Source of the DNA: Chamaesiphon sp. OTE_75_metabat_95
GTDB lineage: Bacteria; Cyanobacteriota; Cyanobacteriia; Cyanobacteriales; Chamaesiphonaceae
Direction: 5' to 3'
DNA: 64,000 bases
Assembly: GCA_031387665.1 (NCBI GenBank)
Contig: JANNDL010000195.1
Coordinates: 113-64,112, forward strand
Position numbers and translations under genes: made by a program. Positions 44,102-64,000 of this stretch are shown here, piece after piece (within the stretch, counting starts at the first letter, position 1; every line of letters starts with the position of its first letter). Below the pieces are notes generated by a model. It saw only the letters and a list, made by a program, of their open reading frames with translations. It was not told the origin of the DNA and ran no database searches.

Positions 44102-44299
44102 AGCGGGGCGAGAAAAGAGGGGGTCTAAAAACAGCCGAAAAACAACCGAAAATTCCAGTAAGTAACCAACAACTTACATCCAACAAGCGATCCCCTCGTC
44201 CCTGTTTTGTACTATTGTGTAAAAGGATCGATTTAACTCTTGAATGTCATTCGACGATCCTCATATCTTTGCTCAACAGGCACTACGAGTAGAATCTTC

Positions 44300-45331: not shown

Positions 45332-45460
45332 CGTATTGATTGAAATCTCCACATGTCAACTCTGCTAGTGGGGTTGGGCGGGTTCAAATTACATTGCTGG
45401 CTACGTTTTGGGCAATAGTATAAACCCTCCCCTACAGATCTCTTCTCCGTTGCCCCCGCG

Positions 45461-45499
45461 CCCCCACACCCCCACACTCCCACACTCCCACACCCCCTC
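45461..45499 (+). repeat. G-free tandem octamer array (YCCCACAC)n abutting the accA start codon
   Basis: CCCCCACACCCCCACACTCCCACACTCCCACACCCCCTC lies immediately before ATG 45500. Confidence 0.85.
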
Positions 45500-46474: not shown

Positions 46475-46507
46475 GTTAGTTTAATGCACAGCTTCAATAA
46501 GTATGAT

Positions 46508-47031: not shown

Positions 47032-47296
47032 CAGCCAACAACTCTTCTAGAATTTCTGATGTTAGCCCCTTTGCTTGAGCTTCCTTGCCAATCGAATCCA
47101 TTAGTGCCAACAAATCATCTTTAGTAGTTTCAATAGTGACATCAACTACCATGTTTTGGTTTAAATTCATCTGTTTCACGATATCAGAGAGTTCACTAAT
47201 TCTTATTTGTTTAATGACTTGTTTCATTTTTTTATCAACAATTTCAGATGTCGCATCCCTATCAACAATTATAGCTATCAATACCGATCGTATCAT
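47021..47296 (-). CDS. Putative antitoxin of the PIN toxin
   Basis: This small acidic ORF ends 11 nt inside the PIN start codon region. The likely start is ATG 47227 (MKQVIKQIRISELSDIV...). I do not recognise the family. Confidence 0.5.
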   Translation of the reverse strand: MIRSVLIAIIVDRDATSEIVDKKMKQVIKQIRISELSDIVKQMNLNQNMVVDVTIETTKDDLLALMDSIGKEAQAKGLTSEILEELLADES

Positions 47297-47494
47297 AGCT
47301 ATCCGCTACCATCAGTGATAACAGCACCTGTGCGACGCTTGAGTAGTACTATTTTGTTCAACAATTGATCGATCGAGATTTGAAATTTACAGATTGGATT
47401 ACTCTCTGCGAAACCGACAACTTAAATCGATGCTATAATAAATTCGTAACAAAAATTTACATATTGGTCGAATACGGGCTAATTCCTGGACTAG

Positions 47495-48226
47495 ATGGAT
47501 CCGAGCACAACAACTAATCGAACGGCGTTGATTACAGGCGCAAGCAGTGGGATTGGCAAAGCCACCGCTCTAGCCTTTGCCAAAGCAGGTATCAACCTGG
47601 CATTGGTAGGGCGTAATCAAGATAAATTAACAGCAGTGGCACAAGCAGCGGAAGCTGTGGGCGTAACGGCAAAAACTTATGTGGTAGATTTGTCCAAACT
47701 CGATCGAGTTTCAGCCACAATTGCGGAGATTGCGGCAGAACATGAGAATTTAAACATCCTCGTCAATAATGCAGGAATGGCTTACACGGGGTCGATTGCG
47801 GACAGTCCGCTGGCTGATTGGCAAAAAGTCATCGACCTAAATCTAACCAGCGTTTTTCAGTGTGTACAGGGGATCTTACCCCACATGCGCCAGCGAAAAT
47901 CTGGGGTGATTGTAAATGTTTCTTCGATCGCTGCCAAGCAGGTATTTCCCAATTGGGGCATCTATTCCGTCAGCAAATTTGGCTTGATGGCACTCACCCA
48001 AGCTATCGCCGGAGAAGAGCGCGGGAATGGAATTCGCGTTACGGCAGTCTGTCCAGGATCGGTTAATACTCCCCTGTGGGACACTGACACCGTACAAGCT
48101 GACTTCGATCGGTCTGCTATGCTGACACCTGAGATTGTGGCTGAAGGCATCCTCTACGCCGTGCTAGCTCCCGCTGGTGCAGTAGTTGAAGAACTGACGA
48201 TTATGCCTAGTGGCGGTGCTCTGTAG
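47495..48226 (+). CDS. Short-chain dehydrogenase/reductase (SDR) family oxidoreductase
   Basis: TGASSGIGKA, NNAG and S...YSVSK catalytic motifs are present. Confidence 0.9.
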   Translation: MDPSTTTNRTALITGASSGIGKATALAFAKAGINLALVGRNQDKLTAVAQAAEAVGVTAKTYVVDLSKLDRVSATIAEIAAEHENLNILVNNAGMAYTGSIADSPLADWQKVIDLNLTSVFQCVQGILPHMRQRKSGVIVNVSSIAAKQVFPNWGIYSVSKFGLMALTQAIAGEERGNGIRVTAVCPGSVNTPLWDTDTVQADFDRSAMLTPEIVAEGILYAVLAPAGAVVEELTIMPSGGAL

Positions 48227-48280
48227 TTCGTCTACCGATTCAATTGTCTTTATTTATTTCTAAATCTATTCAGATCAAAC

Positions 48281-48943
48281 ATGACTATTAGCAACGATAA
48301 ACTCAATATCAATCCTAGACCCGATCGCAACACCCACAACGGCGAGCCAGTAAAAATTCACGAGCCAGAAGTCAGCCTCGAAGACATGATGGACTCGGTG
48401 CGCCAAATTATTTTAGGTGTGGGTGAAGATCCAGATCGAGAGGGTTTGCTCAAGACTCCAAAGCGAGTAGCTGAATCGATGCGGTTCCTGACTAGTGGCT
48501 ACAACCAGTCCCTCGACGATATCATCAATGGTGCGATTTTTGATGAAGGGCACAATGAGATGGTGCTGGTGCGAGACATCAACTTCTTCAGCATGTGCGA
48601 ACACCATATGCTCCCGTTTATGGGTAGAGCGCATGTTGCTTACATCCCCAACCAAAAAGTAGTCGGATTGAGCAAACTGGCGCGGATTGTCGATATGTAT
48701 TCCCGTCGGATGCAAGTCCAAGAAAGACTGACGCGCCAAATCGCCGAAGCACTTCAGGAAGTACTAGAGCCTAGAGGCGTAGCTGTAGTCATGGAAGCCA
48801 GCCACATGTGCATGGTGATGCGCGGGGTGCAGAAGCCTGGAGCTTGGACTGTGACTAGTTCAATGCTGGGTGCATTCCAAGAGGATCAGCGCACGAGAGA
48901 AGAGTATCTCAGTTTGATTCGTCATCAACCATCGTTTTCGTAA
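48281..48943 (+). CDS. folE: GTP cyclohydrolase I
   Basis: [17 protein letters not shown]...[12 protein letters not shown]...QVQERLT. Confidence 0.95.
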
Positions 48944-49090
48944 GAAGTGGATGGTGAATAGCTTGTCGGGTGAGCACTGCCCACCATCTAGTTTCTATAC
49001 TTTTCACGGTAATAATTTGAGCTATTGTAGCATACGTTTTGCATACTCACAAATTGTTTGTGGCAAAAACGCAAGCTTTGCCCGCGCAAA

Positions 49091-49202
49091 GTATAGAACC
49101 CATTTGAGATCTTCTTAGCTTCTAGTGGAGGAGGGTAGGTTTTGTTTAAGGTCGAATATAGCATCGACATTGGTTAGCATAAACCTACCCCTACAGATCC
49201 AT
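49091..49202. repeat. About 113-bp dispersed hairpin-forming element, copy 2
   Basis: It aligns end to end with 15372-15484, with scattered substitutions. Confidence 0.8.
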
Positions 49203-49269
49203 CGACGAATCGATGACGCATTTTGTGAGCCAACCGTAGGGGCTGGTGTCTTGTCGTTTTTTTATATCT

Positions 49270-49325
49270 CCTGACGGAGAGGCTACGCCAACGGGGGGAA
49301 CCCCCGTTGGCGGAAGCCCGCTCCC
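49270..49325. repeat. Palindromic small dispersed repeat pair
   Basis: CCTGACGGAGAGGCTACGCCAACGG-GGGGAACC-CCCGTTGGCGGAAGCCCGCTCC. The left arm matches the 25-nt insertions in the two long uvrA fragments (55140-55164 and 61774-61798). Confidence 0.75.
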
Positions 49326-49439
49326 CCAGGAGAATAAAAACGCCGCTTCATGCCAGTAATTGTCGCCTAACACCATTATCTTCAAACAAAACCTGCCCTC
49401 CCTCACTAGAAAGTCTCAAATGGGTTCCATCCGCTAATT

Positions 49440-49595
49440 CTATTCCTTCACCGTTGACTTTCGGTTGCGGCATCTATCGGAGCAGTATTTGACTTCATCC
49501 CAACAACCTTCCCACTTTTTGCGCCAAGTGAACGAAAGTTGACAGACGGTGCAGATTTTGGTGGGAAGATCGGATTTCGATCGATGTTTGGGCAT
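49440..49595 (-). CDS. DUF2256 domain protein (51 aa)
   Basis: [51 protein letters not shown] carries the conserved DUF2256 pattern CxxC..FxWRKKW....W..VKYCS.RCR. It is too short for the ORF track. Confidence 0.75.
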
Positions 49596-49627
49596 ATAGT
49601 TTAGTTGTCGATCGCTAAATATCTTTT

Positions 49628-50380
49628 GTGAGTAACTCTCTTCATCATATTCGGATTGTCCTGGTCGAGCCAGCAGGTGCCCTAAATGTCGGCTCGATTG
49701 CGCGGGTGATCAAAAATATGGGATTGTCGCAACTAGTAATTGTCAATCCCCAGTGCGAAGTCGATGGTGAAGAAGCAACCAGGATGTCAGTACATGCGAT
49801 CGATCTATTGCAGTCAGCCAAAATTACCCCCGACTTACCCACCGCATTAGCAGGCTGTACCAGAGTAATTGCCACTACAGCCAGAGAACGCGCAATTCCC
49901 ACATTATTAGAAACACCCAGACAAGTCTTGCCGTGGTTGGTAGAAACCAATGAACCAACAGCCTTGATCTTTGGGCGAGAAGATAGCGGTTTGACGAATG
50001 CGGAATTAAATTATGCCACCCGCTATCTGCGGATTCCAGTTGGTTCTGAATACAGTTCGCTGAATTTGGCTCAAGCCGTGGGAGTTTGCGCCTATGAATT
50101 GCAAGTGTGCTCGAGTGAGATTGGATTAGAGCAGACAACAATCCGTTCGCAGATGCCTCAGTCATCAGATATTGCACCTGTAGAATTAGTCGAAGGATAT
50201 TATCAGCAGTTAGAAACTTTATTATTAGAAATTGGTTATCTGCTGCCCCATACCGCTGCACACCGGATGGAGAAAATCAGGCGGTTATACAATCGCAGCC
50301 AACTTTCGCCGAATGAAGTGGCTTTGCTGCGCGGCATTTTGCGTCAAGTTGGTTGGGCAATCGATCCTAAATCCTCATGA
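49628..50380 (+). CDS. SpoU/TrmH-family RNA 2'-O-methyltransferase (TrmJ-like)
   Basis: GTG start. [23 protein letters not shown]...[15 protein letters not shown]...[16 protein letters not shown]. Confidence 0.85.
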
Positions 50381-50472
50381 TTTACAGCAAGATATTTAAC
50401 CCAAGTGCTACCTATAACCTCAGCGGTTTCAGTCGTAGGCGTTCTACAGGTAGCAACTTAGGTTATTCAAAC

Positions 50473-50506
50473 AAAAAAACCATACCCCAAAAGGTATAGC
50501 TTTTTT
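50473..50506. terminator. Bidirectional hairpin between the methyltransferase gene and tRNA-fMet
   Basis: AAAAAAACCATACC-CCAAAA-GGTATAGCTTTTTT has an A-run and a T-run flanking the stem. Confidence 0.5.
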
Positions 50507-50510
50507 AAAA

Positions 50511-50587
<77 letters not shown>

Positions 50588-50746
50588 GTCATGTGTTGTT
50601 TTTCTCAACTTGTCTAATATAACACCACTTACTGATAAATAGCAAGCCCCTTTTCTAACAGGATATTTAGGGTGAGTCGAGAGGGATGCACAAACTCTCA
50701 AAAAATCTTAAAATCTGTAAAGACACCTAAAAATAACGATAGAGAT

Positions 50747-52941: not shown

Positions 52942-52968
52942 TCACTAATTACCGCTCGTTAGTTGCAA

Positions 52969-53757
52969 ATGTGCCGTTTACTCGCTTATCAGGGGATTCC
53001 CCAGTCACTCGATCGATTAATTGCTCAACCAGAACATTCATTAGTCGTCCAGAGCTATCAGCCCCGTGAAATGACCGCCGGAATTATCAATGCTGATGGT
53101 TTTGGGTTGGGTTGGTATCATCCCCACCAAGAGACAGATCCATTTATTTATAAGCACACTCAACCAATTTGGACGGATATTAATCTACCCTATCTGAGCC
53201 GATATGTAGAAACTGGTTGTATGTTGAGCTATGTTCGTAGTGCTACTCCTGGACAGTGCATCAGTTTGAACAATTGTCAACCATTTCGGGACGGTAAACT
53301 ATTATTTATCCACAATGGATTTATCGATAAATTCCGCAGTGGTTTGTACAAGCAAATTCGGGACAAATTGCATCACCACATCTATCAATCGATCGATGGT
53401 ACTACTGATTCCGAACACATCTTCGCGCTATTTTCCAATGAGCTACACACTCAGCCAGATCTGCCATTAGCAACTGCCCTTCAGCGGACTTTGCACATCT
53501 TACGCGACTTAGTAGACCATGAGCGCACCACGATTTCGGCAAATATTGTAATTAGCGATGGTGAACAATTAATTGCTTCCCGTTTTGCTCACAGAGCGAC
53601 TGTACCGACGCTATATTGGATTAAAAATAGTATTGATTATCCAGACTCCGTAATTCTAGCATCCGAGCCAATCTTTGCAGGTGATTGGCAAGTTTGCCCG
53701 ATGCAAACCATCATTACTGTCAACAAGGATTTAGATGTCCAAATCACACCAATTTAG
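52969..53757 (+). CDS. Class II (Ntn) glutamine amidotransferase, EgtC-like
   Basis: The start MCRLLAYQG has Cys2 as the nucleophile. GFGLGWY...NCQPF...HNGFI motifs are present. The ORF track starts 6 nt upstream at a TTG. Confidence 0.8.
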   Translation: MCRLLAYQGIPQSLDRLIAQPEHSLVVQSYQPREMTAGIINADGFGLGWYHPHQETDPFIYKHTQPIWTDINLPYLSRYVETGCMLSYVRSATPGQCISLNNCQPFRDGKLLFIHNGFIDKFRSGLYKQIRDKLHHHIYQSIDGTTDSEHIFALFSNELHTQPDLPLATALQRTLHILRDLVDHERTTISANIVISDGEQLIASRFAHRATVPTLYWIKNSIDYPDSVILASEPIFAGDWQVCPMQTIITVNKDLDVQITPI

Positions 53758-53762
53758 GTAAA

Positions 53763-53912
53763 TATTTTCCAGTATGGGACATTGGATTCTTCACCACCTG
53801 TTCCGCGCTACTAATTCACCACCCTTATTCCCACCTTCTGAACCCGATCATTGGCGATAGCGGAGCGCGTTGGGCTTCAACGCCGAAGAGGGTGGGGGCG
53901 GTTTGTCCGAGA
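53763..53912 (-). pseudogene. uvrA: uvrA 3' fragment C (about 150 nt, heavily degraded, internal deletions)
   Basis: TATTTTCCAGTATGGGACATTGGATTCTTCACCACCTGTTCC...CTTATTCCCACCTTCTGAACCCGATC aligns with 54671-54770 of fragment A. CGCGTTGGGCTTCAACGCCGAAGAGGGTGGGGGCGGTTTGTCCGAG aligns with the LSGGEAQRV-coding part. Confidence 0.7.
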
Positions 53913-53915
53913 GGC

Positions 53916-54313
53916 TCAAGGCTGAAAACGTAAATGTTGAAGAGATCGCACTTTTGCAATCGTTTCAAAATCACGATCGTTATGAATTAAAGTAAATTAT
54001 TTTCTAGGGCAGCTTGAGCAATACAGCAGTCAATTGAACTACGAACGGTGAGTCCTTTTCGGCGCAGATTGTAGTAAACACGGGCGGCTGCTTGCCAGGA
54101 ATGATTAGTAGGTTCGATATAGTCTTGCGTGTCGAGATAGGTGGAAAGGAGATTCCACTCTTTTTCGTCCAAACTTCCTTGGAGTAGTTCGAGTTGAGTG
54201 AAGCGTGTGAGTAAAACTTCCCGACCATCGATGAGAACTTCGAGTTTTTGGCGTACTTGTCCAGTCCGATCTCGAAAAACAGTAATCCAAACGGAGGTAT
54301 CAATCAACAACAT
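53916..54313 (-). pseudogene. vapC: VapC (PIN-domain) toxin with a -1 frameshift near the 3' end
   Basis: MLLIDTSVWITVF...SSIDCCIAQAALENNLL stops at 53987. The next frame continues LIHNDRDFETIAKVRSLQHLRFQP to a stop at 53916-53918. The shift lies in the A/T run at 53989-53991. Confidence 0.75.
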
Positions 54314-54512
54314 GATGATTCTCGCGCATAGCTTTATAGTCGAAGTCTTCTGTAAATTGAATTTGTCCGGCCAGATCGAGGAGATTTTTCTTGCGACGGG
54401 AACGCACGAGTTCTTGTAGAGCCAAATTCATTAGTTCTTCCTGGGTGCTGAATTTGGTGAGTTGGAGAGCTTCTTCTAGGAGGGATTCATCTAGGTTAAG
54501 AGTTATTTGCAT
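54300..54512 (-). CDS. vapB: VapB-family antitoxin (DUF2191-like)
   Basis: MQITLNLDESLLEEALQLTKFSTQEELMNLALQELVR. It overlaps the vapC start by 14 nt. Confidence 0.8.
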   Translation of the reverse strand: MQITLNLDESLLEEALQLTKFSTQEELMNLALQELVRSRRKKNLLDLAGQIQFTEDFDYKAMRENHHVVD

Positions 54513-54625
54513 GGGATAACGGCACGATTGTGAGTTTTGAGCCTACACTTCAATTATATCCGCACAATTGAACCTACTCTTCGTTCGCGAAGCGTTCACT
54601 CGTGAAATCTACTCCAGATTGATGC

Positions 54626-55428
54626 TCAAGTTTTCACCGCTGCTGAATGTTGTTTCAATACTTGCTTGAGATACTTCCCAGTATGCGACTTAGGATTCTT
54701 CGCCACCTGTTCCGGTGTCCCGACAGCGACTAATTCTCCCCCTTTATTACCACCTTCTGGCCCCAGATCGATCGTCCAGTCGGAGCAGCGAATCACGTCG
54801 AGGTTGTGTTCGATCGCGAAGTGTGGGCTTTGCCCAATCGCAATCACGGAGTTTCCCTTATCGACTAGTCGCTGAAGCACATCTAAGAGCTTATGGACAT
54901 CGTAGAATGACAGTCCGGTAGTGGGTTCGTCGATTAGATATAGGGTTTTGCCTGTGGCGCGTTTGGAGAGTTCGGTGGCGAGTTTGACTCGTTGGTCTTC
55001 ACCACCGGAGAGGGTGGGGGCGGTTTGTCCGAGTTTGACGTAGCCGAGTCCGACATCGAGGAGGGTGGCGGCGCGGGGGATATTTAAAGAAGAATTCTAA
55101 GCCTTCTTCGACAGTCATATTCAGGACATCGGCTATTCTCTTTACAGAGAGGCTCCGCCAACGATTTACCCTTATATTTAACTTGGAGGGTTTCGCGATT
55201 GTAGCGTTCGCCTTTGCAGACATCGCACTGGACGTAGACATCGGGGAGGAAGTTCATCAAAGGTGGTGTTTACCCCTTGTCCGCTACAGGCTTCACAGCG
55301 TCCACCTTTGACGTTAAAGGAAAATTGTCCGGCTTTATAGCCACGTGTTTTGGCTTCGATGGTTTGGGTGAAGACTTCGCGGATGGTGTCGAATACGCCT
55401 GTATGGGTGACGGGATTCGATTCCCCAT
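54626..55428 (-). pseudogene. uvrA: uvrA 3' fragment A (about 0.8 kb; C-terminal ABC module remnant with frameshifts and insertions)
   Basis: Three broken frames read [50 protein letters not shown], ...[16 protein letters not shown]..., and ...[14 protein letters not shown][GQSPHFAI][37 protein letters not shown]. It starts exactly at the stop codon of the S8 protease gene. Confidence 0.85.
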
Positions 55429-58362
55429 CTAGCTTATCCGTAATGCTCCACCCCCAGAAATAACAACAGCATAATCTTGTTCTCCCATCTGAACATCGGC
55501 AACAATCTCGATTCTCCACTCGCCAATTTCAGGCGATTTTACAACGACTCCTTCGACATTATTAATGTTATCTGGACTGCCAGTTTCCTCAAAATCATTA
55601 CCCAGATAGTGTTTACCACTGGGACTGCGGAAGACTAAATTAAGATTGTTAATTAAGTTTTCGCCTGGGTAGTCTGTATAAACAAGGGTGACTTTGAGTG
55701 GAATTGAGGAATCGGTAATTTTCACTTTATGCTCATGTTTTTCACCTGTGATTAAACCATTTGCTTCATCAATCAAGATTGCTTGAGTTGTTGTTGCTGG
55801 TTTTAAAACTTTCTGCAAGTCCACTCTACCCCATCCTTGCTCGTTATCTGCCCAAGGTGCTGAAGCCGGATGAGCATGACGATAGTTGATGTATTGGGCT
55901 GAGTGGATTAGTATTGCTTTAACCAAAGCAGCACTGGGATTGAATATAGATGGCTGATGGTTTTCGCGCAGATATTGGCGAACTAATGCGGCACATCCAG
56001 CAACCAAGGGTGTTGCCATCGAAGTTCCATGCATATACATGTAATGATATCTCGCTGGGGGATAAGCTCCATCAGCAAAATTATTACTGGCAATCTGAGA
56101 GGAACGAGTAGAAAGAACAAAAGTACCTGGAGCAACTACATCGGGTTTGCGACGACTTGGTTGATAATATCGATCTAAACAAGGTCCTCGACTGCTAAAA
56201 GGTGCAATATCATCAATTGAATCAGCTATATTAACAGACTTGAAAGGTTCATATGGAAAGTTGTCTGGATTTTGATTTCCATACGTATCAGAAAATTGAC
56301 CGCTACGATCGTTTTCAGATGCGCCAATGGTCAAGCAGTTTTTAGCCGTTCCAGGAGTATTGACATTGCTTTGTTCTATACCATTCCCTGAAGATCGATG
56401 TTTACCATTATTTCCAGCAGCAACTACTACTAAGAAATCTTTCTGACCCCAGACAAATTCATCTAGTTTTTGACACCTAAAGTCATAGAATCCGTCACCT
56501 CCTCCTCCCCAGGAGTTAGAATGAATTCGCGCACCCTTTTCGTAAGTATATTGAAATAATTCTGTCAGATCTTCAGGAATCCCGAATAATGCTGATGGCG
56601 GTGGCATAACATCAAAATTTTCTATATAGAACAAAGAGCCTTCTAGAGTCCATTTTGTAGTTTGTTCAACAGCTTGAAAAATTAATTTCGCCTCAGAAGC
56701 TGTACCTGCGGGAATGGAAGAAATTTTTAATTCTTTTGCTTGTGTTCCATCACCCAAAGCACTTCCAGCTACATGGGTTCCATGTCCTGAGAATTTGTCA
56801 GATGCTCCATCATCATCTCCCATATTTTGTAGATAGGTTTCCCACCATCCTTTTGTGATCGGATAACTTTTAATATCGATAACTCGTCCTTGTAAATCAG
56901 GATGCAGAAACTCTCGATCGCCTGTATCCAGTCCAGTATCTGCGATCGCAATAATTTCGTCCCTACCCGTTAAGCCAAGGGTTGGGATAGGATTAGAAGG
57001 AATAACACCTTTAGCAATTACACAACCAGCTTTTTCGTTAAATATTCTGGGGATAGTTTTTTCTTCTAAGGAGCGCAGTCCTTCCTGTGAGCTGATTATT
57101 TTAAAGAGATCGAGTGCATTAGTAGCAGCACTAATATCTACGATCAACAAATCTTTTCCTGGAAGATCACCAATACGAATCCCTGGAATAGATTCTAAAT
57201 TTTGTGCAGCCAGATCGCGATCTTTTGTTGTAAAGAAAACAGCTACTAAAATTCCTGGAAGTGTCAGGTTTCGAGGCGGAGAATTATTAGTATTTCTGGC
57301 AGCATTTAACCTAGCCGCCGAGATCGCTTCTTTGGTAGCTGGTTGACCTAGATTTTGAAGTGATTGTGTTTGAACTCGAATATTGGGAACGTAAGCAGTG
57401 ACTTGGGCTACTTCTTCAAAATCCCTAATTTGGTTCGCAATATCTTCACTAGGAACGGCAACTACAAATTCTAACCTACCTAAAGGCTGTAGTATTTTTG
57501 AACCTGTGTCCTCTATTCTTTGTTTCCAACTTTCTAGCACAGGAGCGTTAAATCTTATCACTCGATCTCTTGTATTCACGTCAGAGCCTCCACTGAGGGG
57601 ATTGGATTCTTGTAATGATTCAATTTTTTCAACTCGACAACATTTTTTGATTTCGGATATCGTATCTTGAGTTGCCCCTGTGACAAAACTGTATGCAGAA
57701 TAAGATTGTATAATATCTATCTTTTCTCGAAAACGATTTAAGTCCTTACCAGCCGTATAATAAACCTTGTATCTAACTTTTTTTGCCTGAATACGTTGCT
57801 CGATCTCATTTTTAGCACGAACAACTAAGTTTTGTATTGTGGGAGTCAGAGGTGCATCATAACCCGATCGATCGATATCTGTTTGTATAGTCCGTAACTT
57901 TTGTAAAGTCCGTAGCTTGTCAATCGTATCTAGCTCAATTTCTTCGCCTTGAGCTAAAGCCCACCTTAATGTAGCTTCAAAATCAGAATCGCTAGGGGAT
58001 AAAAGGACAGTAAGTCGCCACATTTTTTCCGCCTTATTCTTGGAGTTTAGTAATTCATCTGACTCATTCGGACGTATATCTGTATTTTCGAGACTGATTT
58101 GTTCGATTGAATCCAGGTTGTTAGCCAAAATAGTAGCCACGGGAGGCATTAATTCAAGAATTTCTTCATATGAGTCTTGCATTTTTATTAATAAATTTAA
58201 TGCCTTTTCTATATTTTTTCTGATCTGCGGATCTATTTTTGATAATGAGTCTTTTTCATTTCTAATGAAATCGATAATTTTGCTATTCATTTCTGTTGTT
58301 TTTACACGACCAATGTATTTTATTGATTGCGGCAATGATGTTAAAGTTAAATCAAACGTCAA
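55429..58362 (-). CDS. Intracellular S8 (subtilisin-like) serine protease with a ~450-aa N-terminal region of unknown family and a C-terminal beta-rich domain
   Basis: The catalytic residues are intact: Asp in [13 protein letters not shown], His in [13 protein letters not shown], Asn in VVVAAGNNG and Ser in [19 protein letters not shown] see no signal peptide or TM helix. The TTG start lies 3 nt after the receiver stop, and ATG 58290 is an alternative start. Confidence 0.85.
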
Positions 58363-58365
58363 TTC

Positions 58366-58764
58366 TCAATTATCCGCGAGTATTCTATCCACATTGCTTG
58401 CCAATTCAAATGGAAGTACTCCATCTTTGTGAAATACTAGTGTTTTTTCTGATTCGATATTTGTCAGCTCATTGTTTCGGAAATTAGTAAATATAATCAC
58501 AGGAATATTTCGATTTAATTGCCTAACTTTTTGGTAGAAACAAATCCCTGTTCTTAAACCATCATTTGTTTGTTCGTCATCAAAACTATTTCCAGTTGGC
58601 ATCATAACATCTAGAATTAAAAGCTTTAATTGATCGCAATTCTTCTCGAAAAAATTAAGAGCATCATCAACATCAGATTCAAATTTCACTTGGTAATGAG
58701 ATAATTCTATTGCTTCGACATAACTCCTCATCCTTCTTCTCTCATCATCTACGAATAATATCAT
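58366..58764 (-). CDS. Stand-alone response-regulator receiver (no output domain)
   Basis: MILFVDDERRRM...LLILDVMMPTGN...VIIFTN...FHKDG carries the DD pocket, the phospho-acceptor Asp, and the T and K. Its ATG overlaps the kinase stop as ATGA. Confidence 0.85.
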   Translation of the reverse strand: MILFVDDERRRMRSYVEAIELSHYQVKFESDVDDALNFFEKNCDQLKLLILDVMMPTGNSFDDEQTNDGLRTGICFYQKVRQLNRNIPVIIFTNFRNNELTNIESEKTLVFHKDGVLPFELASNVDRILADN

Positions 58765-61052
58765 CGATTATCTCCAGAAATGTGTTTTGGTAAAATCAGT
58801 TGAAATTCAGTGGGATTCGCATTGCGTACTAATTTTAAGTCCCCACCTAACTGTTTCATAATTGTTGCAGAAATATTCAATCCTAATCCAGAACCACCTA
58901 CTTTAGCAATGGCTTCAGATGAACGGAACCCTTCTTTGAAAATATTGTTTGAATCATCTTCTTTAATCCCTATTCCCCCATCTTGGAATTTAATAATAAA
59001 ATTATTTCTGTCTTGTTCAACTTCGATAGATAGATTAAAGTCCTTTGGACTTCTTTTCGCGTATTTGAATGCATTCATTAAAATATTGAACACCACTTGA
59101 TTGAGCTTAATTCTATCAGTAAAGACAATAATTTTATTTGCATCATCTTTGTTAAATTTTATTCTATCAAAAGAGAAATTATACTCTTCATTAATGTATG
59201 ATTTAAGCTGATAAATAGTTTTCATGATAATATCTCTAAAAACAACAACCTCTTCTAACTTAATTGTTTCTAAAGAACTTTTGCCTAACAAATATTCAAT
59301 TTGTCCCACTTGATAAAAAAGTAATTCGCAATCTGTCTGAATATCTTCGAGTTTAATTGTTGTTTTTTGTGGACTATACCTAACATCATCAAAAGTTCGC
59401 TGAACAAAGCTTGCGTGTCCTCTTATCGCTACTATTGGAGATCTCAATTCATGAGTAATTCTATCGATTAATCTTGCTTTTTCACGCTCGATAGCATGAG
59501 CAGCACAATCAACAAGACTTTTGAGTATTGTTACATCTTGTTCATATATATGTTGTCGGCATTCTCTTGGATAACCAGCTTCAACAGTCCCAATTACTTG
59601 ATTACTAGAAGGTTCAATAATTGGCAAGAAAACCCTGATAAATTTTTCATGACCATATTTTTTGTAAATTAATCGATCAAAGCGTTTATCTTCTGGATCT
59701 GGAACTTCAATTTCTTTACTTCTAACAATATTTGATTGGATATCATCATCACCTAAATCATGCTCTGCATCCTGTTTAAACTCTTTACTTAATTTTTCTT
59801 CTAGTCCTGATGTACGTTCGGAGCTTATAGTGTTTGCTTCTATATTTACTCGTGATATGTTGACCCATTCAAACCCAAGTATTTTGATGATAGCATCAAT
59901 AATTTGATTCATTATAAAATCATAATCTTGACTCTTGCTTATTTTTTGCTCTACAACTCTAATTTTCTTGCCTTTCTCGTAGAAAATAAGCCTTTCAATT
60001 CTGATACTTGCATCATCCGCCAACAACAAAATTCTCTTTTTATGAGTATCTGAGAATGCATTAAGAGCAGAGCTTTCAATATTTATTACCCCAATGCATT
60101 TTTTCGATCCTTTTTTAAATTCTTTACCCTCCATTATCTGTGCTTTATCTACTATTGGAATTGCGATCTCAGATCGTGCATTTTTCCATATATCAGAAAC
60201 AAAATCTCCGGTCTTGAAAGCATTATTAGCTTCAACAATTCTCTGTTCTCTAATTGCCTGTCTAGTGATTCCTTGACCTAGCTCCCAATGCAGTTTATCA
60301 TCATAACCTTTTTCTTCAGTTTTTCTAACAACTTTTAAGTTACCACTTGCATAATTAATCTTAGCCAATAGAATATGGATGTCTTTCTTGCAATCACTTT
60401 CCAAAATTTCCGAGACACCATTGTATAGTGCATCCCATATCTCTTCTGTTGTAGTAGCATCATTCATTTCCCTCATCGTATTCATCATACTTTCAATCCG
60501 AGATCGATCTTTTTCAATTTCCTGACTAGCAACAATAGATCGATCCTTTCCTAAAAATACTGTTATTCGATCGACTAGAATCTTAAATAAGTTCTTTTCC
60601 CATAGTTGAAAGTGACGAGTCTCTGTGGTGAAAATATTGAGTGCGCCTACAGCCTCTCCATTAGCTTCTAATACTGTACTCATTAGTGAAACCCATTTTC
60701 TTGCTTTAATATCATCTATTTCAACCAATCGATATTTTGATTGGCTTACATCAGGCAAACACCAAATTTTATCTCCGCTAGATAAATTTTGCTGAATCGA
60801 TGGATGTGCCGTATCTAGCTCAAGTTGCTTATACTCTTTATCTACCTCTCCATGAGTCGCCACAATTTTAAATTTTGACTCCCCTGGCTGTTTTTCCCAG
60901 AGAATACAAATAGGTACTTCGAGTAATTGACAGACTCCTGCTAGAAAAACTTGTCGAAATTCACTCTGCGATGCTGAACCCAATCTTTCTGACAACTGAC
61001 CTAACTCAGATAGCTTTTGGCTAAAATCGACATTATTACTGGGATCTTCCAT
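58761..61052 (-). CDS. Cytoplasmic histidine kinase with three GAF-like domains
   Basis: 763 aa with no TM helix. Three ~170-aa GAF-like modules are followed by the H-box ITHELRSPIVAIRGHASF, the N-box NILMNAFKYA, and G-boxes DGGIGI and GGSGLGLNIS. Confidence 0.85.
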   Translation of the reverse strand: MEDPSNNVDFSQKLSELGQLSERLGSASQSEFRQVFLAGVCQLLEVPICILWEKQPGESKFKIVATHGEVDKEYKQLELDTAHPSIQQNLSSGDKIWCLPDVSQSKYRLVEIDDIKARKWVSLMSTVLEANGEAVGALNIFTTETRHFQLWEKNLFKILVDRITVFLGKDRSIVASQEIEKDRSRIESMMNTMREMNDATTTEEIWDALYNGVSEILESDCKKDIHILLAKINYASGNLKVVRKTEEKGYDDKLHWELGQGITRQAIREQRIVEANNAFKTGDFVSDIWKNARSEIAIPIVDKAQIMEGKEFKKGSKKCIGVINIESSALNAFSDTHKKRILLLADDASIRIERLIFYEKGKKIRVVEQKISKSQDYDFIMNQIIDAIIKILGFEWVNISRVNIEANTISSERTSGLEEKLSKEFKQDAEHDLGDDDIQSNIVRSKEIEVPDPEDKRFDRLIYKKYGHEKFIRVFLPIIEPSSNQVIGTVEAGYPRECRQHIYEQDVTILKSLVDCAAHAIEREKARLIDRITHELRSPIVAIRGHASFVQRTFDDVRYSPQKTTIKLEDIQTDCELLFYQVGQIEYLLGKSSLETIKLEEVVVFRDIIMKTIYQLKSYINEEYNFSFDRIKFNKDDANKIIVFTDRIKLNQVVFNILMNAFKYAKRSPKDFNLSIEVEQDRNNFIIKFQDGGIGIKEDDSNNIFKEGFRSSEAIAKVGGSGLGLNISATIMKQLGGDLKLVRNANPTEFQLILPKHISGDNR

Positions 61053-61266
61053 ACTGCTTACACCTATACTGACGGCAAGGAACGCTTAATCACCCGATCG
61101 ATTCATCACAAGTCTCGTCGTCTCAAACAAGCTTGCCTTATACATTATGTGATAATTGTAACAAATACCGAAGATCCATCTCAACAACTTGTAATATTTT
61201 TTGACTGGCAGTAAATACCATCTCGTTTAGAGAAAATGTACCCTAGACGAACAAAACCTGCTTCCT

Positions 61267-62030
61267 CTACAAGTAAGTTTTTCCAGATGGCGCGTGTTGT
61301 TTCAACACCTGTTTCAAATACTTTCCCGTATGTGAAATCGGATTTTTCGCCACCTGTTCCGGTGTCCCCACAGCTACTAATTCTCCCCCCTTATTACCAC
61401 CTTCTGGCCCCAGATCGATCGTCCAGTCGGAGCAGCGAATCACGTCTAGGTTGTGTTCGATCGCAATCACCGAATTACCTTTATCTACTAGTCTTTGCAG
61501 CACGTCTAGGAGCTTGTGGACATCGTAGAATGAGAGTCCGGTGGTGGGTTCATCGATGAGATACAAGGTTTTGCCAGTGGCGCGTTTGGAGAGTTCGGTG
61601 GCGAGTTTGACGCGCTGGGCTTCACCGCCGGAGAGAGTGGGGGCAGTTTGTCCGAGTTTGACGTAGCCGAGTCCGACATCGAGTAGGGTTTGGAGGCGGG
61701 TGGCGGCGCGGGGGATATTTTGGAAAAATTCTAAGCCTTCTTCGACGGTCATATTTAGGACATCAGCGATTCTCTTGACAGAGAGGCTACGCCAACGATT
61801 TGCCCTTATATTTAACTTGGAGGGTTTCACGGTTGTAGCGTTCGCCTTTGCAGACATCGCACTGGACGTAGACATCGGGGAGGAAGTTCATCTCGATGAT
61901 GTTCACACCTTGTCCGCTACAGGCTTCACAGCGTCCACCTTTGACGTTGAAGGAAAATTGTCCCGCTTTATAGCCGCGTGTTTTGGCTTCGATGGTTTGG
62001 GTGAAGACTTCACGGATGGTGTCGAATACG
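61267..62030 (-). pseudogene. uvrA: uvrA 3' fragment B (about 0.76 kb; C-terminal ABC module remnant carrying a 25-nt insertion)
   Basis: The frames read [76 protein letters not shown], then the 25-nt insert, then [64 protein letters not shown]...[11 protein letters not shown]...IEHNLDVI...GPEGG. The N-terminal two thirds of UvrA are absent. Confidence 0.88.
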
Positions 62031-62126
62031 TCGAATAATAATTTGAGATCGATGTGTAACTTTGTTCAGACAAGGGAATCATGGGTATATCCGATATATT
62101 CCCAAACTATTTCCCTCGATATATCC

Positions 62127-64000
62127 ATGAGTTACTGCCTAAACTCTAATTGCCAAGCTCCAGCCAATAATCCCGCCCGTACCAGCTTTTGTTTATCTTG
62201 CGGAGCTTGGGTACTGCTTAAAGATCGCTATCGCGCCCAGAAGCTATTAGGACAAGGCGGATTTGGCAAAACGTTCAAAGCAGTAGATGAACACCAACCC
62301 AGTCAGCCGTTGTGTGTAATTAAGCAGTTTGAATTTGGTAGCAATAATCCTCAAATCAGGGAGACGGCTCTAAAACTATTTTATGATGAGGCACGACATT
62401 TAGAGTCATTGGGGAAACATCACAATATTCCAGAACTACTAGCTTATTTTGATATTGAAGGTCAACCTTATTTGATTCAGCAGTTTATTGATGGGCAAGA
62501 TCTAGAGCAGGAACTAGCGACAGCAGGTGTATTCGACCAAAGCAAGATCCGCAAACTACTTCTTTCATTTCTACCAGTTTTAGATTTTTTACATAAAAGA
62601 TCGATACCAGTGATTCATCGAGATATTAAGCCTGCCAATATTATTCGGCGGTGCAGCGATGACAGTTTGGTATTAGTCGATTTTGGTGCGGCAAAACAAG
62701 CAACGAAGACAATATTAGGGAAAACAGGTACTCTTATCGGTAGTCCAGAATATACGGCACCAGAGCAACTAAGAGGTAAACCAACATTTGCTAGTGACAT
62801 TTATAGTTTGGGAGTGACTTGCATCTATTTACTTACCCAAGTTTCACCGTTTGACTTATTTGATATCAATCAAGACGCTTGGGTCTGGAGAGATTATCTG
62901 ATTAATAATCCAGTCGATGCAGAGTTGGGTCGAGTATTAGATCGAATGATTTCTAATTCCCTTCCTCAACGATATCTGTCAGCAACAGATGTGTTAGCAG
63001 CATTAGGGAATTATCAGCCAATAGTTACTCAAAATTCTATTTCACAAAATTTAAAGACACTCGATCTGGCTAGCCCATATGGAAATCTAAATTTTGACAA
63101 CTTCACTAAAGTTCAAGCGAAACCTCTGAATAATCAACATCCTCTTCAACCTCTCGATCCTGAAATAGCTAAAATACAACTCGATAATTCTACTGAAACT
63201 CAAGCCAAACTCCCCCACAATTCTCCTCCCCTCAAATCGTTTGAGTTTGAGACAGCTAAAATACGCATTGAAGAGCTAGGCGGCTTGTGGGGACATACTA
63301 AAGTTGTCATTAAAAAATCGCGTGGACAATCTAAAAAATTTATCGAATATTTTGGAGGTGGAGTAAACCTAGAAATGGTTGCAATCCCAGGTGGAAGTTT
63401 CTTGATGGGGGCACCAAAATTAGAGCCACAAAGCTATGATAACGAAAGACCACAGCATCAAGTACAAATACCACCATTCCACATGAGTAAGTATGTAATC
63501 ACGGTGGCTCAATATCAGACAGTAATGAGAGACAAATCCTATAGTAAAGATGAAGCAGATTTACCTATGACGTGTTCATGGCAAGGAGCAGTATCATTCT
63601 GTGAGAAGTTATCGAAAGGCTTGAAGCTAAATTATCGACTTCCATCTGAGGCAGAGTGGGAATATGCTTGTAGGGCAAGAACAACAACACCTTTTTATTT
63701 TGGAGAAACTATTGATAAAGAGCTTGCTTACTATGATTCAACGATGGCTTATGGAAGAGGTCAGAAGGATGAAAAGTCTAGTCGTATATCAGGAAAGAAG
63801 GTCGGAAGTCATCCAGCTAAAGATTTTGGTTTATACGACATGCATGGAAATGTGGAAGAATGGTGCGCTGATTCTTGGCATCCAAATTACATAGATGCCC
63901 CGACAAATAGTATTGCTTGGGTTTCAAGTAATAGCAATGAACGTGTCGTTCGGGGTGGTTGTGGAACAACTGATCCCTGGCTTTGTCGCTCGGCTGCACG
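62127..64000 (+). CDS. Zinc-ribbon - Hanks Ser/Thr kinase - formylglycine-generating-enzyme (FGE/SUMF1) domain protein, 5' part (continues past the right edge)
   Basis: The ATG is at 62127. The sequence is MSYCLNSNCQAPANNPARTSFCLSCGAW...LGQGGFGKTFKAVD...VIHRDIKPANII...DFGAAK...GSPEYTAPEQ, then GGSFLMGAP...ERPQHQVQIPPFHMSKYVITVAQY...LPSEAEWEYACRA...YDMHGNVEEWC. It stays open to position 64000 and is absent from the ORF track because it has no stop. Confidence 0.88.
   Translation, partial: MSYCLNSNCQAPANNPARTSFCLSCGAWVLLKDRYRAQKLLGQGGFGKTFKAVDEHQPSQPLCVIKQFEFGSNNPQIRETALKLFYDEARHLESLGKHHNIPELLAYFDIEGQPYLIQQFIDGQDLEQELATAGVFDQSKIRKLLLSFLPVLDFLHKRSIPVIHRDIKPANIIRRCSDDSLVLVDFGAAKQATKTILGKTGTLIGSPEYTAPEQLRGKPTFASDIYSLGVTCIYLLTQVSPFDLFDINQDAWVWRDYLINNPVDAELGRVLDRMISNSLPQRYLSATDVLAALGNYQPIVTQNSISQNLKTLDLASPYGNLNFDNFTKVQAKPLNNQHPLQPLDPEIAKIQLDNSTETQAKLPHNSPPLKSFEFETAKIRIEELGGLWGHTKVVIKKSRGQSKKFIEYFGGGVNLEMVAIPGGSFLMGAPKLEPQSYDNERPQHQVQIPPFHMSKYVITVAQYQTVMRDKSYSKDEADLPMTCSWQGAVSFCEKLSKGLKLNYRLPSEAEWEYACRARTTTPFYFGETIDKELAYYDSTMAYGRGQKDEKSSRISGKKVGSHPAKDFGLYDMHGNVEEWCADSWHPNYIDAPTNSIAWVSSNSNERVVRGGCGTTDPWLCRSAA

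What the first reader, a model, noticed from the sequence alone, without database searches (positions are those of the whole stretch)
53763..62030. Three diverged 3' fragments of uvrA in direct orientation partition the locus into cargo units (vapBC, and the kinase-receiver-protease cassette)
Seen in sequence: on the minus strand the order is uvrA'B, HK-RR-S8, uvrA'A, vapB-vapC, uvrA'C. B (61267-62030) and A (54626-55428) cover the same last ~260 codons of UvrA (from ...[11 protein letters not shown] to the C-terminus). By eye they differ at roughly one position in ten (not computed). A additionally has a 24-nt in-frame insertion (54818-54841), a ~12-nt deletion and a +1 frameshift. C keeps only ~150 nt. 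No fragment has the N-terminal two thirds of UvrA. A begins exactly at the S8 stop codon. B ends at a TCGAATA-CG-TCGAATA microduplication (about 62020-62037). The whole stretch, and the kinase-FGE gene to its right, looks more A+T-rich than the core genes on the left. Inference: islands may have accreted serially at a uvrA-derived site, each bringing or duplicating a uvrA 3' segment. Alternatively, circular DNA carrying a uvrA fragment integrated Campbell-type. The direct repeats would also allow the cassette to be lost by recombination. No integrase is visible in the window.
Basis: partly seen in the sequence, partly recalled or inferred. Interest (0 to 1): 0.65.

Follow-up and report, generated by a model that had tools for sequence, protein, structure and literature searches.

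The report
Stacked uvrA-tail scars in defence island
Three dead copies of the last quarter of the DNA-repair gene uvrA mark where accessory gene modules (a toxin-antitoxin pair, a kinase-receiver-protease cassette and a defence-type kinase) were added one after another next to uvrA in a Chamaesiphon cyanobacterium, probably by ordinary homologous recombination and not by an integrase.

Summary
Minus-strand order is B (62029-61267), HK-RR-S8, A (55421-54626), vapBC, C (53911-53760). A and B are 90% identical.

The organism is a Chamaesiphon. The fragments are Chamaesiphon-type uvrA: repaired B is 98-99% identical in protein to native UvrA of related genomes. In relatives, a full-length uvrA sits beside variable toxin-antitoxin and defence modules separated by similar uvrA fragments.

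Each window fragment is a chimera. Its 5' junction travels with the cargo upstream of it; its tail and flank travel with the cargo downstream. The S8-stop/codon-700 junction and the uvrA-tail/HK junction recur in three diverged copies of the cassette.

Fragment divergence is almost all synonymous (dN/dS about 0.05), so each was part of a working gene until displaced. Decay rises B < A < C.

No integrase or transposase was found in the window's large ORFs or in the downstream flanks scanned in relatives.

Best reading: stacked insertion-duplication alleles at the uvrA 3' end, moved by homologous recombination using uvrA as arms. Serial accretion is supported. The enzyme mechanism, and the position of the native uvrA beyond the contig, are inferred.

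The parts
53760..53911 (-). uvrA' fragment C. It is the oldest scar: two patches (about residues 815-830 and 905-938) joined over a remnant of an inverted mini-element. Its end is cut off at the stop codon of the GATase_4 gene.
   Evidence: The same joined form is seen in run X1 at depth 17. The spacer between vapC and C is shared with L084.
53987..54512 (-). vapB (54300-54512) and vapC (53987-54313), a type II toxin-antitoxin pair. This is cargo unit 1.
   Evidence: Pfam VapB_antitoxin E 4.8e-16 and PIN E 8e-08. In L081 vapB follows the native uvrA stop with the same intergenic DNA.
54626..55421 (-). uvrA' fragment A (residue 700 to the stop), a pseudogene with five lesions. Its 5' junction belongs to the HK-RR-S8 cassette. 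Its tail (KQHSAAVKT*) and downstream flank match the native uvrA-vapB arrangement of L081.
55137..55161 (-). 25-nt small dispersed repeat (TTGGCGGAGCCTCTCTGTAAAGAGA) inserted at a TCG^ATCG site. It shifts the reading frame of A.
   Evidence: The same variant occurs at eight or more non-uvrA loci.
54820..54843 (-). 24-nt insert in A (contains GGGCAAAGCCCACACTTCG) at a GCGATCG site. It is a second kind of mini-element.
   Evidence: It is present at the same site in L081f and at an unrelated L084 locus.
55429..61266 (-). Cargo unit 2. It comprises S8 subtilase (55429-58362), a receiver-only response regulator (58366-58764), a GAF histidine kinase (58761-61052) and the conserved upstream spacer (61053-61266). 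It is A+T-rich.
   Evidence: Pfam and GC. The three-gene cassette is conserved in Nostoc, Tolypothrix, Crocosphaera and Chloracidobacterium. The same uvrA junctions occur in L192, L194 and L196.
61267..62029 (-). uvrA' fragment B (residue 707/708 to the stop), the youngest scar in the window, with a single lesion. Its 5' junction is shared with the kinase module of L162, L163, L164, L182 and L184. Its tail and spacer are shared with the HK cassettes of L194 and L196.
61771..61795 (-). 25-nt small dispersed repeat in B, at the same site as in A. It is absent from the orthologous fragment in L162/L163 and present in L184.
62127..64000 (+). Ser/Thr kinase fused to an FGE-sulfatase domain, running off the window (the closest full-length relative, P0001, is 646 aa). 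It is part of cargo unit 3 and resembles the PD-T4-6 defence kinase.
   Evidence: PADLOC PD-T4-6 E 3e-121 over residues 1-314. It is followed by YopA_C in L162 and L184, or by a HipA-like gene, a HIRAN gene, AbiL and then a uvrA 3' end in L164; in L082 AbiL lies between a full-length uvrA and this kinase.

Best explanation
**What it is**
- The stretch is the outer part of a variable toxin-antitoxin and defence island that grows from the 3' end of uvrA in Chamaesiphon.
- Each module exists as an 'insertion-duplication allele': uvrA up to its stop, then cargo, then a second copy of the uvrA 3' part.

**How it spreads (inferred)**
- DNA of this form enters a cell whose uvrA is intact.
- One crossover upstream in uvrA, and a second crossover further downstream in the same gene, install the cargo.
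- The incoming uvrA end becomes the working one. The resident end is pushed outward as a promoterless, startless fragment.

**How the window arose (inferred)**
- Three rounds of this gave native uvrA (beyond the contig), the kinase-FGE unit, B, HK-RR-S8, A, vapBC and C.
- The displaced ends then decay through frameshifts, deletions and hits by 24-25-nt mini-elements that prefer CGATCG-type sites.
- The repeats remain substrates for further recombination (gain, loss, swaps). No dedicated integrase is involved.

**Shown**
- The fragments, junctions and lesions.
- The junctions shared with relatives.
- The selective signature in the fragments.
- The absence of recombinase genes in the window ORFs of 150 aa or more and in the downstream flanks of relatives that were scanned.

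**Inferred**
- The recombination route.
- The order of arrival.
- The position of the native uvrA relative to this contig.
For: **1. Native gene beside such islands**
- L081, L082, L083 and L084 have a full-length uvrA directly followed by vapB', by AbiLi/AbiLii, or by an antitoxin-PIN pair. L081, L083 and L084 also carry further uvrA fragments.
- L082 has a full-length uvrA, then AbiL, then the kinase-FGE gene. L164 has a uvrA 3' end at its contig edge, then AbiL, the kinase-FGE gene and a B-type fragment.
- The antitoxin-upstream DNA of L162 matches the DNA after the native uvrA stop in L083 and L084.

**2. Chimeric fragments**
- B's 5' junction is identical in L162, L163 and L164, and B-type fragments starting at residue 707-712 lie next to the kinase gene in L182 and L184.
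- B's tail and the roughly 210-nt spacer are shared with L194 and L196.
- A's 5' junction (S8 stop + 8 nt + ATCGAAT) is shared with L192, L194 and L196, whose HK is only 65-83% identical.
- A's tail and flank match the native uvrA-vapB of L081.
- The spacer upstream of C is shared with L084.

**3. Fragments were functional until displaced**
- dN/dS is 0.057 for A vs B (55 synonymous, 13 non-synonymous changes).
- dN/dS is 0.043 for window B vs L162 B (18 vs 3; binomial p 1.7e-8).
- Native-to-native pairs give 0.03-0.10.

**4. Three different alleles in one genome**
- In run X1, three uvrA 3' ends sit at equal depth (15.8, 17.1, 17.2).
- They differ from each other by about 13% over the last 120 nt.
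- uvrA 5' and middle contigs are present at depth about 17.

**5. Arms are younger than cargo**
- Cargo dS is 0.57-1.7. The adjacent arm has dS 0.22-0.33 and dN 0.01-0.02.
- Private changes in the arms are enriched in the first 36 nt after the junction (10/180 vs 8/440, p 0.017).
- L194 and L196 share a private change 22 nt from the junction.
- This is expected if crossovers fall inside the arm.

**6. Decay gradient**
- B has 1 lesion, A has 5, and C is shredded.

**7. A fresh example of the same process**
- In L196, a Gp49/HigB-type toxin gene is inserted upstream of the cassette. It leaves a 25-codon stub with the B-type tail.
- Nostoc L123 has uvrA, two small genes, then a uvrA' fragment 96.5% identical to the native end.

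**8. No recombinase**
- None among the window ORFs of 150 aa or more.
- None in the scanned flanks of L083, L084, L085, L162 and L164.
- No uvrA' on viral contigs, and no Chamaesiphon-like uvrA fragment among the plasmid matches (best 68.5% identity; the listed ones are non-cyanobacterial uvrA genes).
Against: - The native uvrA of this genome was not linked to the window. The contig ends about 0.5 kb past the window.
- The third uvrA 3' end in X1 lies on a 3.3-kb contig whose content I could not read.
- Fragment 5' starts cluster at residues 688 or less, 697, 700 and 707, next to a HIP1-like CCCGCGATCGAA. That would also suit a site-specific enzyme.
- How the very first duplication of each allele formed is unknown.
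- A shares the 25-nt and 24-nt inserts with L081f, and the 25-nt insert with B, but shares no private substitutions with them. Some exchange between copies, or repeated hits at the same site, must be added to the model.
- Old fragments (L083f, L084f1, C) are 20-30% diverged, so refreshing is not universal.
- Natural competence of Chamaesiphon is assumed, not shown.
Confidence: 0.6

Rival explanations
1. The modules are site-specific integrative elements, or integrase-less elements mobilised in trans. They target uvrA near codon 700 and carry a replacement 3' end, in the manner of tRNA-targeting islands, e14/phage 21 in icd, or tycheposon arrays. The integrase would be lost or encoded elsewhere.
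For: - Direct repeats of the target's 3' end separate the cargo units.
- Independent fragment starts cluster within about 20 codons: residues 688 or less, 697, 700 and 707.
- The A junction falls at the same phosphodiester (GCG^ATCG) where a mini-element sits in L084f2.
- The cargo is of a mobile-element kind.
Against: - No integrase, transposase or resolvase domain in the window ORFs of 150 aa or more, or in the scanned flanks of relatives.
- The repeats are 750-800 nt, far longer than att identity blocks as I know them.
- Other starts lie at residues 784, 855 and about 898.
- The A and B junctions are inherited with their cargo, not re-made. This is shown by the shared junction-proximal private change in L194 and L196 and by the identical odd 8-nt linkers.
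- No uvrA'-bearing phage was found, and no Chamaesiphon-like uvrA fragment among the plasmid matches.
Confidence: 0.2
2. The fragments arose in place. uvrA's 3' end was duplicated by unequal crossing-over or replication slippage in an ancestor. Cargo later landed between the copies, and the copies are kept gene-like by gene conversion from the native uvrA. No DNA was imported.
For: - dN/dS is low even between the orthologous B fragments of the window and L162.
- The 25-nt insert is present or absent among orthologous B copies.
- L083f is closer to its own native gene than to its orthologue L084f1.
Against: - A, B and the third copy in one genome differ by about 13% from each other, so they are not homogenised.
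- The HK-RR-S8 cassette is A+T-rich and has relatives in other phyla, so it was imported.
- Tails of different allele types co-occur in one genome.
Confidence: 0.12
3. The uvrA fragments are functional. They would be expressed as truncated UvrA C-terminal proteins or as RNA that serves the neighbouring defence modules, and so are kept by selection.
For: - The substitution pattern is codon-like.
- The 25-nt insert creates an ATG-started 202-aa ORF in B at 61267-61875.
- The Nostoc L123 fragment is an intact 77-aa ORF.
Against: - A has four frameshifting lesions (two +1 insertions, the 25-nt insert and a further in-frame pair of indels), and C is shredded.
- Read directly from the sequence returned: there is no in-frame start codon upstream of B in the window, and a TGA lies 12 codons before it.
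- The fragments lack the Walker A motif of the second ATPase domain.
- Older fragments decay freely.
Confidence: 0.03
4. The arrangement is an assembly artefact produced by collapsed or chimeric repeats.
For: - The repeats break short-read assemblies: L161, L162, L163 and L194 all end inside uvrA copies.
- The source contig ends just past the kinase gene.
Against: - Every junction is covered by 100%-identical contigs from public runs at an even depth of 15-17x.
- The same junctions occur in independent assemblies from other samples.
Confidence: 0.02

Closest known systems
Tycheposon arrays and tRNA-anchored islands of Prochlorococcus (bioRxiv 10.1101/2020.12.28.424599)
   Same: - Successive arrivals at one site push older elements outward.
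- Units are separated by partial copies of the target gene's 3' end.
- Degenerate remnants lie further into the island.
- The cargo includes defence genes.
   Different: - There the target is a tRNA gene, the partial copies are short att sites, and each element carries a tyrosine recombinase.
- Here the target is a protein gene, the copies are up to 800 nt, and no recombinase was found.
e14 and phage 21 integration into icd of E. coli (from my own knowledge)
   Same: The element brings a replacement 3' end for a housekeeping gene. The displaced original end is left as a pseudogene on the far side.
   Different: - There the replaced end is about 165 nt and integrase-mediated, with one prophage.
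- Here the replaced end is 750-800 nt, three layers are stacked, there are no phage genes, and junction-linked polymorphism points to crossovers inside the repeat.
ICE/CIME accretion at the 3' end of fda in Streptococcus thermophilus (from my own knowledge)
   Same: Tandem stacking of units that share a target-derived repeat. Some units lack their own integrase.
   Different: There the repeats are short att sites and a resident ICE integrase acts in cis or trans. None was identified here.
Flexible or replacement islands and minimal mobile elements exchanged by homologous recombination in conserved flanks (López-Pérez et al. 2014, as cited; the Neisseria MMEs are from my own knowledge)
   Same: - There are no mobility genes.
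- Exchange depends on conserved flanking sequence and DNA uptake.
- Diverged cargo alleles sit in a conserved frame.
   Different: Those systems use two different flanking core genes and replace cargo. Here both arms are copies of one gene, so insertion is additive and leaves a countable scar.
Very small mobile repeated elements (SDR) of cyanobacteria (Elhai et al. 2008, Genome Res 18:1484; cited via PMC3116915; paper not held)
   Same: - The 24-27-nt hairpin-containing inserts are dispersed over many loci.
- They have conserved ends and sub-families.
- They sit in a fixed short target context.
   Different: I could not compare them with the published SDR families. Here they mark and break up uvrA pseudogene copies. 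They are a side feature, not the cause of the duplication.

Membership tests
Site-specific integrative island at the 3' end of a gene | Cargo is flanked by direct repeats derived from the target gene's 3' end. | tested here: met
   A, B and C lie in direct orientation around vapBC and HK-RR-S8.
Site-specific integrative island at the 3' end of a gene | An integrase or recombinase gene lies within or next to the element. | tested here: not met
   Pfam scans of all window ORFs of 150 aa or more, and of island ORFs in L083, L084, L085, L162 and L164, found none.
Site-specific integrative island at the 3' end of a gene | Independent insertions share the same short crossover core. | tested here: inconclusive
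   Starts cluster at residues 688 or less, 697, 700 and 707, but others lie at 784, 855 and about 898. The A and B junctions are inherited, not recurrent.
Site-specific integrative island at the 3' end of a gene | Excised circle or empty-site junctions can be detected. | tested here: inconclusive
   Only contigs were available. The one A-to-B 'joint' in X1 carries 31 unrelated letters and is not a clean recombinant.
Defence / toxin-antitoxin island (hotspot between conserved genes) | The cargo is dominated by known or candidate defence and TA genes. | tested here: met
   vapBC; a PD-T4-6-like kinase (E 3e-121); AbiLi/AbiLii; PDC-M03A; PIN, ParE, YoeB and Gp49 toxin domains with Phd/YefM, BrnA and HTH_37 antitoxin domains; and DRT UG19 in the Nostoc example.
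Defence / toxin-antitoxin island (hotspot between conserved genes) | Content varies between close relatives at the same anchor gene. | tested here: met
   Seven or more different contents occur downstream of uvrA in Chamaesiphon genomes. L085 and L086 have no fragments.
Functional uvrA | A full-length open frame of about 950 aa with both ATPase domains. | tested here: not met
   Only residues 700 onward are present, and all three copies are frameshifted or deleted.
Type II VapBC toxin-antitoxin | An adjacent VapB antitoxin and a PIN-domain toxin with overlapping genes. | tested here: met
   PF09957 E 4.8e-16 and PF01850 E 8e-08, with a 14-nt overlap. Activity was not tested.
Small dispersed repeats of cyanobacteria (SDR) | Very short (about 21-27 nt) repeats with conserved ends, dispersed over many loci, in a fixed insertion context. 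| tested here: met
   The variant TTGGCG.AGCCTCTCTGT.AAGAGAAT occurs at 14 loci in the genome collection, always in a ..TCG^CG.. context. Other loop sub-families were also seen.
Small dispersed repeats of cyanobacteria (SDR) | Sequence belongs to one of the published SDR families. | not testable with these tools
   The Elhai et al. 2008 paper is not held.

The most novel reading that the evidence does not exclude
Partial copies of a universal, slowly evolving housekeeping gene act as portable homology arms. A 'uvrA-end / cargo / uvrA-end' unit could then install itself additively, in one recA-dependent step, into any related genome that has uvrA. That would be an integrase-free, cassette-stacking system for defence genes, with the scars giving a readable order of arrival. 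CGATCG/HIP1-type sites may serve as the preferred break points for both the mini-elements and the cassette junctions.
Probability: 0.3. Interest if true: 0.75.

Novelty: new variant of a known kind. Interest (0 to 1): 0.55.

Why it matters
**Why it would matter if the reading holds**
- It shows how defence and toxin-antitoxin modules can accumulate and move between strains of a cyanobacterium without any mobility gene. They would borrow a conserved repair gene as recombination arms.
- The scars give a built-in stratigraphy of the island: the order of arrival can be read off.
- The scars also explain why short-read assemblies break here.

**By-products**
- A conserved HK-receiver-subtilase cassette is flagged as a candidate accessory or defence module found across phyla.
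- Mini-elements are documented that hit CGATCG-type sites.

**Testability**
- Transform a uvrA-cargo-uvrA' fragment into a naive strain, with and without recA.

Tried and rejected
**Searches that found nothing**
- An exact-match search for B in the genome collection.
- Two metagenome scans, one with the window's right end and one with the B junction.
- A viral-contig search for uvrA'-bearing elements. The plasmid search returned uvrA matches at no more than 68.5% identity and no Chamaesiphon-like fragment.
- Literature searches for uvrA as an integration site gave nothing relevant. The Elhai 2008 paper is not held.

**Attempts to see beyond 64 kb**
- The source contig is only 64,548 nt.
- The window's kinase protein is not on record. 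The best hit, P0001, is 93% identical.

**Attempts to reconstruct the genome's native uvrA end from Logan contigs**
- Unitigs are too short and several strains are mixed.
- Only the depth of a third copy and its distance from A and B over 120 nt could be obtained.

**Ideas rejected or weakened**
- Foreign origin of the fragments: rejected, because repaired B is 98-99% identical in protein to Chamaesiphon UvrA.
- Continuous gene conversion from the native copy as the sole cause of low dN/dS: weakened, because the three copies in one genome differ by about 13% from each other.
- Orthology of A and L081f from shared inserts: not supported by any shared private substitution. The mini-elements also hit the same site repeatedly, since two sub-families occur at site iii.
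- The 'microduplication' at B's start as a target-site duplication: weak, because relatives differ there.
- A tRNA-based att site: the only tRNA is tRNA-Met at 50512-50588, outside the island.

Full report
**1. What is there**

On the minus strand the region reads as follows:

| Element | Coordinates | Note |
|---|---|---|
| uvrA' B | 62029-61267 | |
| spacer | 61266-61053 | 214 nt |
| GAF histidine kinase | 61052-58761 | |
| receiver-only regulator | 58764-58366 | |
| S8 subtilase | 58362-55429 | |
| uvrA' A | 55421-54626 | |
| vapB | 54512-54300 | |
| vapC | 54313-53987 | |
| uvrA' C | 53911-53760 | runs into the stop codon of a class-II glutamine amidotransferase gene (52963-53757, + strand) |

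To the right of B, on the + strand, a Ser/Thr kinase fused to an FGE-sulfatase domain starts at 62127 and runs off the window.

A tblastn search with a full-length Chamaesiphon UvrA finds only residues 700 onward (A), 708 onward (B) and scraps (C) in the whole window.

**2. State of the fragments**

- B becomes a perfect 245-codon frame once a 25-nt insert (61771-61795) is removed.
- A carries the same insert at the same site (55137-55161). It also has two +1 insertions (55261, 55088), a 12-nt deletion and a 24-nt insert.
- C is two short patches.
- A and B are 90.0% identical.

**3. Composition and assembly**

- HK, RR and S8 are A+T-rich (GC 0.32-0.39 against 0.46 for the core). The uvrA fragments are not (0.51-0.53).
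- The assembly is sound. Contigs of public metagenome runs match the window at 100% across every junction, at an even depth of 15-17x.

**4. Organism and origin of the fragments**

- Core genes place the window in Chamaesiphon, with 97% protein identity and about 88% nucleotide identity to the closest MAG.
- Repaired B is 98-99% identical in protein to the native UvrA of Chamaesiphon genomes, against 82-87% for other cyanobacteria.
- The fragments therefore come from within the genus.

**5. What relatives show at uvrA**

In Chamaesiphon genomes the DNA just downstream of a full-length uvrA is a variable island.

| Locus | Arrangement |
|---|---|
| L081 | uvrA - truncated vapB - uvrA fragment |
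| L083 | uvrA - antitoxin/PIN - uvrA fragment - Gp49/HTH_37, BrnA and Phd-YoeB toxin-antitoxin genes |
| L084 | uvrA - antitoxin/PIN remnant - fragment - ParE toxin - vapC remnant - fragment |
| L082 | uvrA - AbiLi/AbiLii - kinase-FGE |
| L164 | uvrA 3' end (contig edge) - AbiLi/AbiLii - HIRAN gene - HipA-like gene - kinase-FGE - B-type fragment - carA |
| L162, L163, L184 | (antitoxin-PIN in L162/L163) - YopA_C - kinase-FGE - B-type fragment |
| L190 | MotA/MotB-like genes (my reading, not tested) and toxin-antitoxin genes beside a fragment starting at residue 697 |
| L085, L086 | no fragments |

- A Nostoc (L123) has uvrA, two small genes, a fragment 96.5% identical to its own uvrA end, and then a defence reverse transcriptase.
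- No integrase, transposase or resolvase domain was found in window ORFs of 150 aa or more, or in the flanks scanned.
- No uvrA fragment was found on viral contigs, and the plasmid matches were uvrA genes at no more than 68.5% identity.

**6. The decisive comparison**

Diverged versions of the HK-RR-S8 cassette occur in L194, L192 and L196, with HK 83%, 71% and 65% identical. They keep the same two junctions as the window:

- On the left, in L194 and L196, a uvrA tail of the type ...KQH..SGKT* followed by a conserved spacer. L192 keeps the spacer but has no uvrA copy upstream of it.
- On the right, in all three, the S8 stop, about 8 nt, then ATCGAAT, which is uvrA codon 700.

The other junctions behave the same way:

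- B's 5' junction (TTATTC|GGCGTATTCGA) is shared with the kinase module of L162, L163 and L164, and B-type fragments adjoin the kinase gene in L182 and L184.
- A's tail (KQHSAAVKT*) and the DNA after it match the native uvrA-vapB of L081.
- The spacer between vapC and C is shared with L084.

Every fragment is therefore a chimera. Its start belongs to the cargo on its upstream side, and its end belongs to the cargo on its downstream side. That is the pattern expected if each incoming unit recombined into the then-working uvrA end and displaced it.

L196 shows a further round. A Gp49/HigB-type toxin gene is inserted upstream of the cassette, leaving a 25-codon stub with the B-type tail.

**7. 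Selective signature**

| Comparison | Result |
|---|---|
| A vs B | dN/dS 0.057 (55 synonymous, 13 non-synonymous) |
| B vs its orthologue in L162 | dN/dS 0.043 (18 vs 3; p 1.7e-8 against neutrality) |
| native vs native | dN/dS 0.03-0.10 |
| cassette genes between lineages | dS 0.57-1.7 |
| adjoining uvrA arm | dS 0.22-0.33, dN 0.01-0.02 |

- Private changes in the arms are concentrated in the first 36 nt after the junction (p 0.017).
- L194 and L196 share one such change.
- I read this as follows. A short junction-proximal stub travels with the cargo. The rest of each arm is replaced by sequence from a working uvrA whenever the unit recombines.
- In run X1, three uvrA 3' ends at equal depth (A, B and a third) differ by about 13% from each other over the last 120 nt. 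uvrA 5' and middle contigs are present at the same depth.
- The genome therefore holds a full uvrA plus ends of three different allele types, which argues for import over in-place homogenisation.
- Older fragments (L083f, L084f1, C) are 20-30% diverged, as expected for abandoned scars.

**8. Mini-elements**

- The 25-nt insert belongs to a dispersed family (TTGGCG.AGCC + short hairpin + AT).
- It sits in ..TCG^CG.. contexts at 14 loci in the genome collection, mostly in Chamaesiphon, with two in other filamentous cyanobacteria.
- A full palindromic relative lies at 49265-49340.
- Three sites in uvrA fragments are hit, at about residues 699, 784 and 903. Site iii carries two different sub-families in different genomes.
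- The 24-nt insert is a second such element.
- Several fragment truncations coincide with these inserts: A's start, L081f's start, and the break inside C.
- They resemble the small dispersed repeats described by Elhai et al. 2008 (cited; paper not held).

**9. Mechanism**

Shown:
- Stacked units separated by displaced uvrA ends.
- Junctions inherited with their cargo.
- No recombinase genes found in what was scanned.
- Arms that track functional uvrA.

Inferred:
- Units spread as insertion-duplication alleles by two homologous crossovers in the recipient's single uvrA, with the left crossover upstream of the right one.
- This installs cargo plus a duplicate in one step.
- How each first duplicate was made is unknown. 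Illegitimate joining, template switching, or a break at a CGATCG site are all possible.

The main rival is a site-specific recombinase acting in trans near codon 700. The clustering of starts at residues 688-707 favours it. The missing enzyme, the 750-800-nt repeats, the other start points and the junction-linked polymorphism count against it.

**10. Verdict**

It is a new variant of a known kind: island accretion with target-end scars. The differences are a protein-gene anchor, very long repeats and no integrase.

The position of the native uvrA relative to this contig, and the recombination route, remain inferences. A long-read assembly and a transformation test would settle both.

Noticed in passing
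window 49265-49340 (minus strand): A palindromic element of about 76 nt (TCTCCTGGGGGAGCGGGCTTCCGCCAACGGGG / CCCCGTTGGCGTAGCCTCTCCGTCAGGAGA) lies in the intergenic DNA before the SpoU methylase gene. Its right half is the same family as the 25-nt inserts in A and B.
   Followed up: partly
window 50512-50588 (minus strand): A tRNA-Met gene sits exactly where nucleotide synteny with the closest relatives (L001-L004) begins, at about 50467-50508. The DNA to its left (at least 44000-50470) has no counterpart in those loci, so this may be a second variable region anchored on a tRNA.
   Followed up: no
window 55429-61052; loci L165-L173, L192-L196: HK (GAF) - receiver-only regulator - S8 subtilase with a long N-terminal region of about 465 aa is a conserved three-gene cassette. 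It occurs in Nostoc, Tolypothrix, Crocosphaera and Chloracidobacterium, and S8 relatives occur in Chloroflexia. Its interior is mosaic (57-95% nt identity in 150-nt windows) while its ends are better conserved. S8 weakly matches PADLOC 'subtilase' and IetS. It may be an undescribed defence or signalling module.
   Followed up: partly
L192 13399-15465: In this Chamaesiphon-like MAG the cassette's right-hand uvrA stub (residues 700-737) is followed directly by uvrC on the opposite strand. This is probably a rearrangement, but it is an odd coincidence of two excision-repair genes.
   Followed up: no
window 62127-64000: The kinase-FGE protein matches the PADLOC PD-T4-6 models very strongly (E 3e-121) over its kinase half. 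More than 5,000 relatives, mostly annotated as FGE/kinase, exist in metagenomes, and Chamaesiphon carries many paralogues.
   Followed up: partly
window 61267-61875 (minus strand): The 25-nt insert in B shifts an out-of-frame ATG into the uvrA frame. This creates a 202-aa ORF that would encode UvrA residues 785-950. It is probably accidental.
   Followed up: partly
window 53757 / loci L001-L018: The DNA after the amidotransferase stop codon differs in every one of the 17 relatives inspected. The far border of the island is thus itself a synteny break. The borders seen elsewhere are carA (L164), a large glycosyltransferase-like ORF that I read as sucrose synthase (L182, not tested), and a phosphomannomutase-like gene (L081).
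   Followed up: partly
window 3733-9096, 28746-30143, 38939-42534: The window is rich in Ser/Thr kinases. One is a 1787-aa kinase-AAA_16-GAF-histidine kinase fusion. Two adjacent kinases (one with ankyrin repeats) lie in a low-GC stretch (39-43 kb, GC 0.38-0.41) that may be another acquired segment.
   Followed up: no
window 61767-61800 in runs X1, X5 and X6: Many metagenome contigs match only the 25-nt insert and then run on into unrelated DNA on both sides. This shows that the mini-element is abundant in these communities.
   Followed up: no
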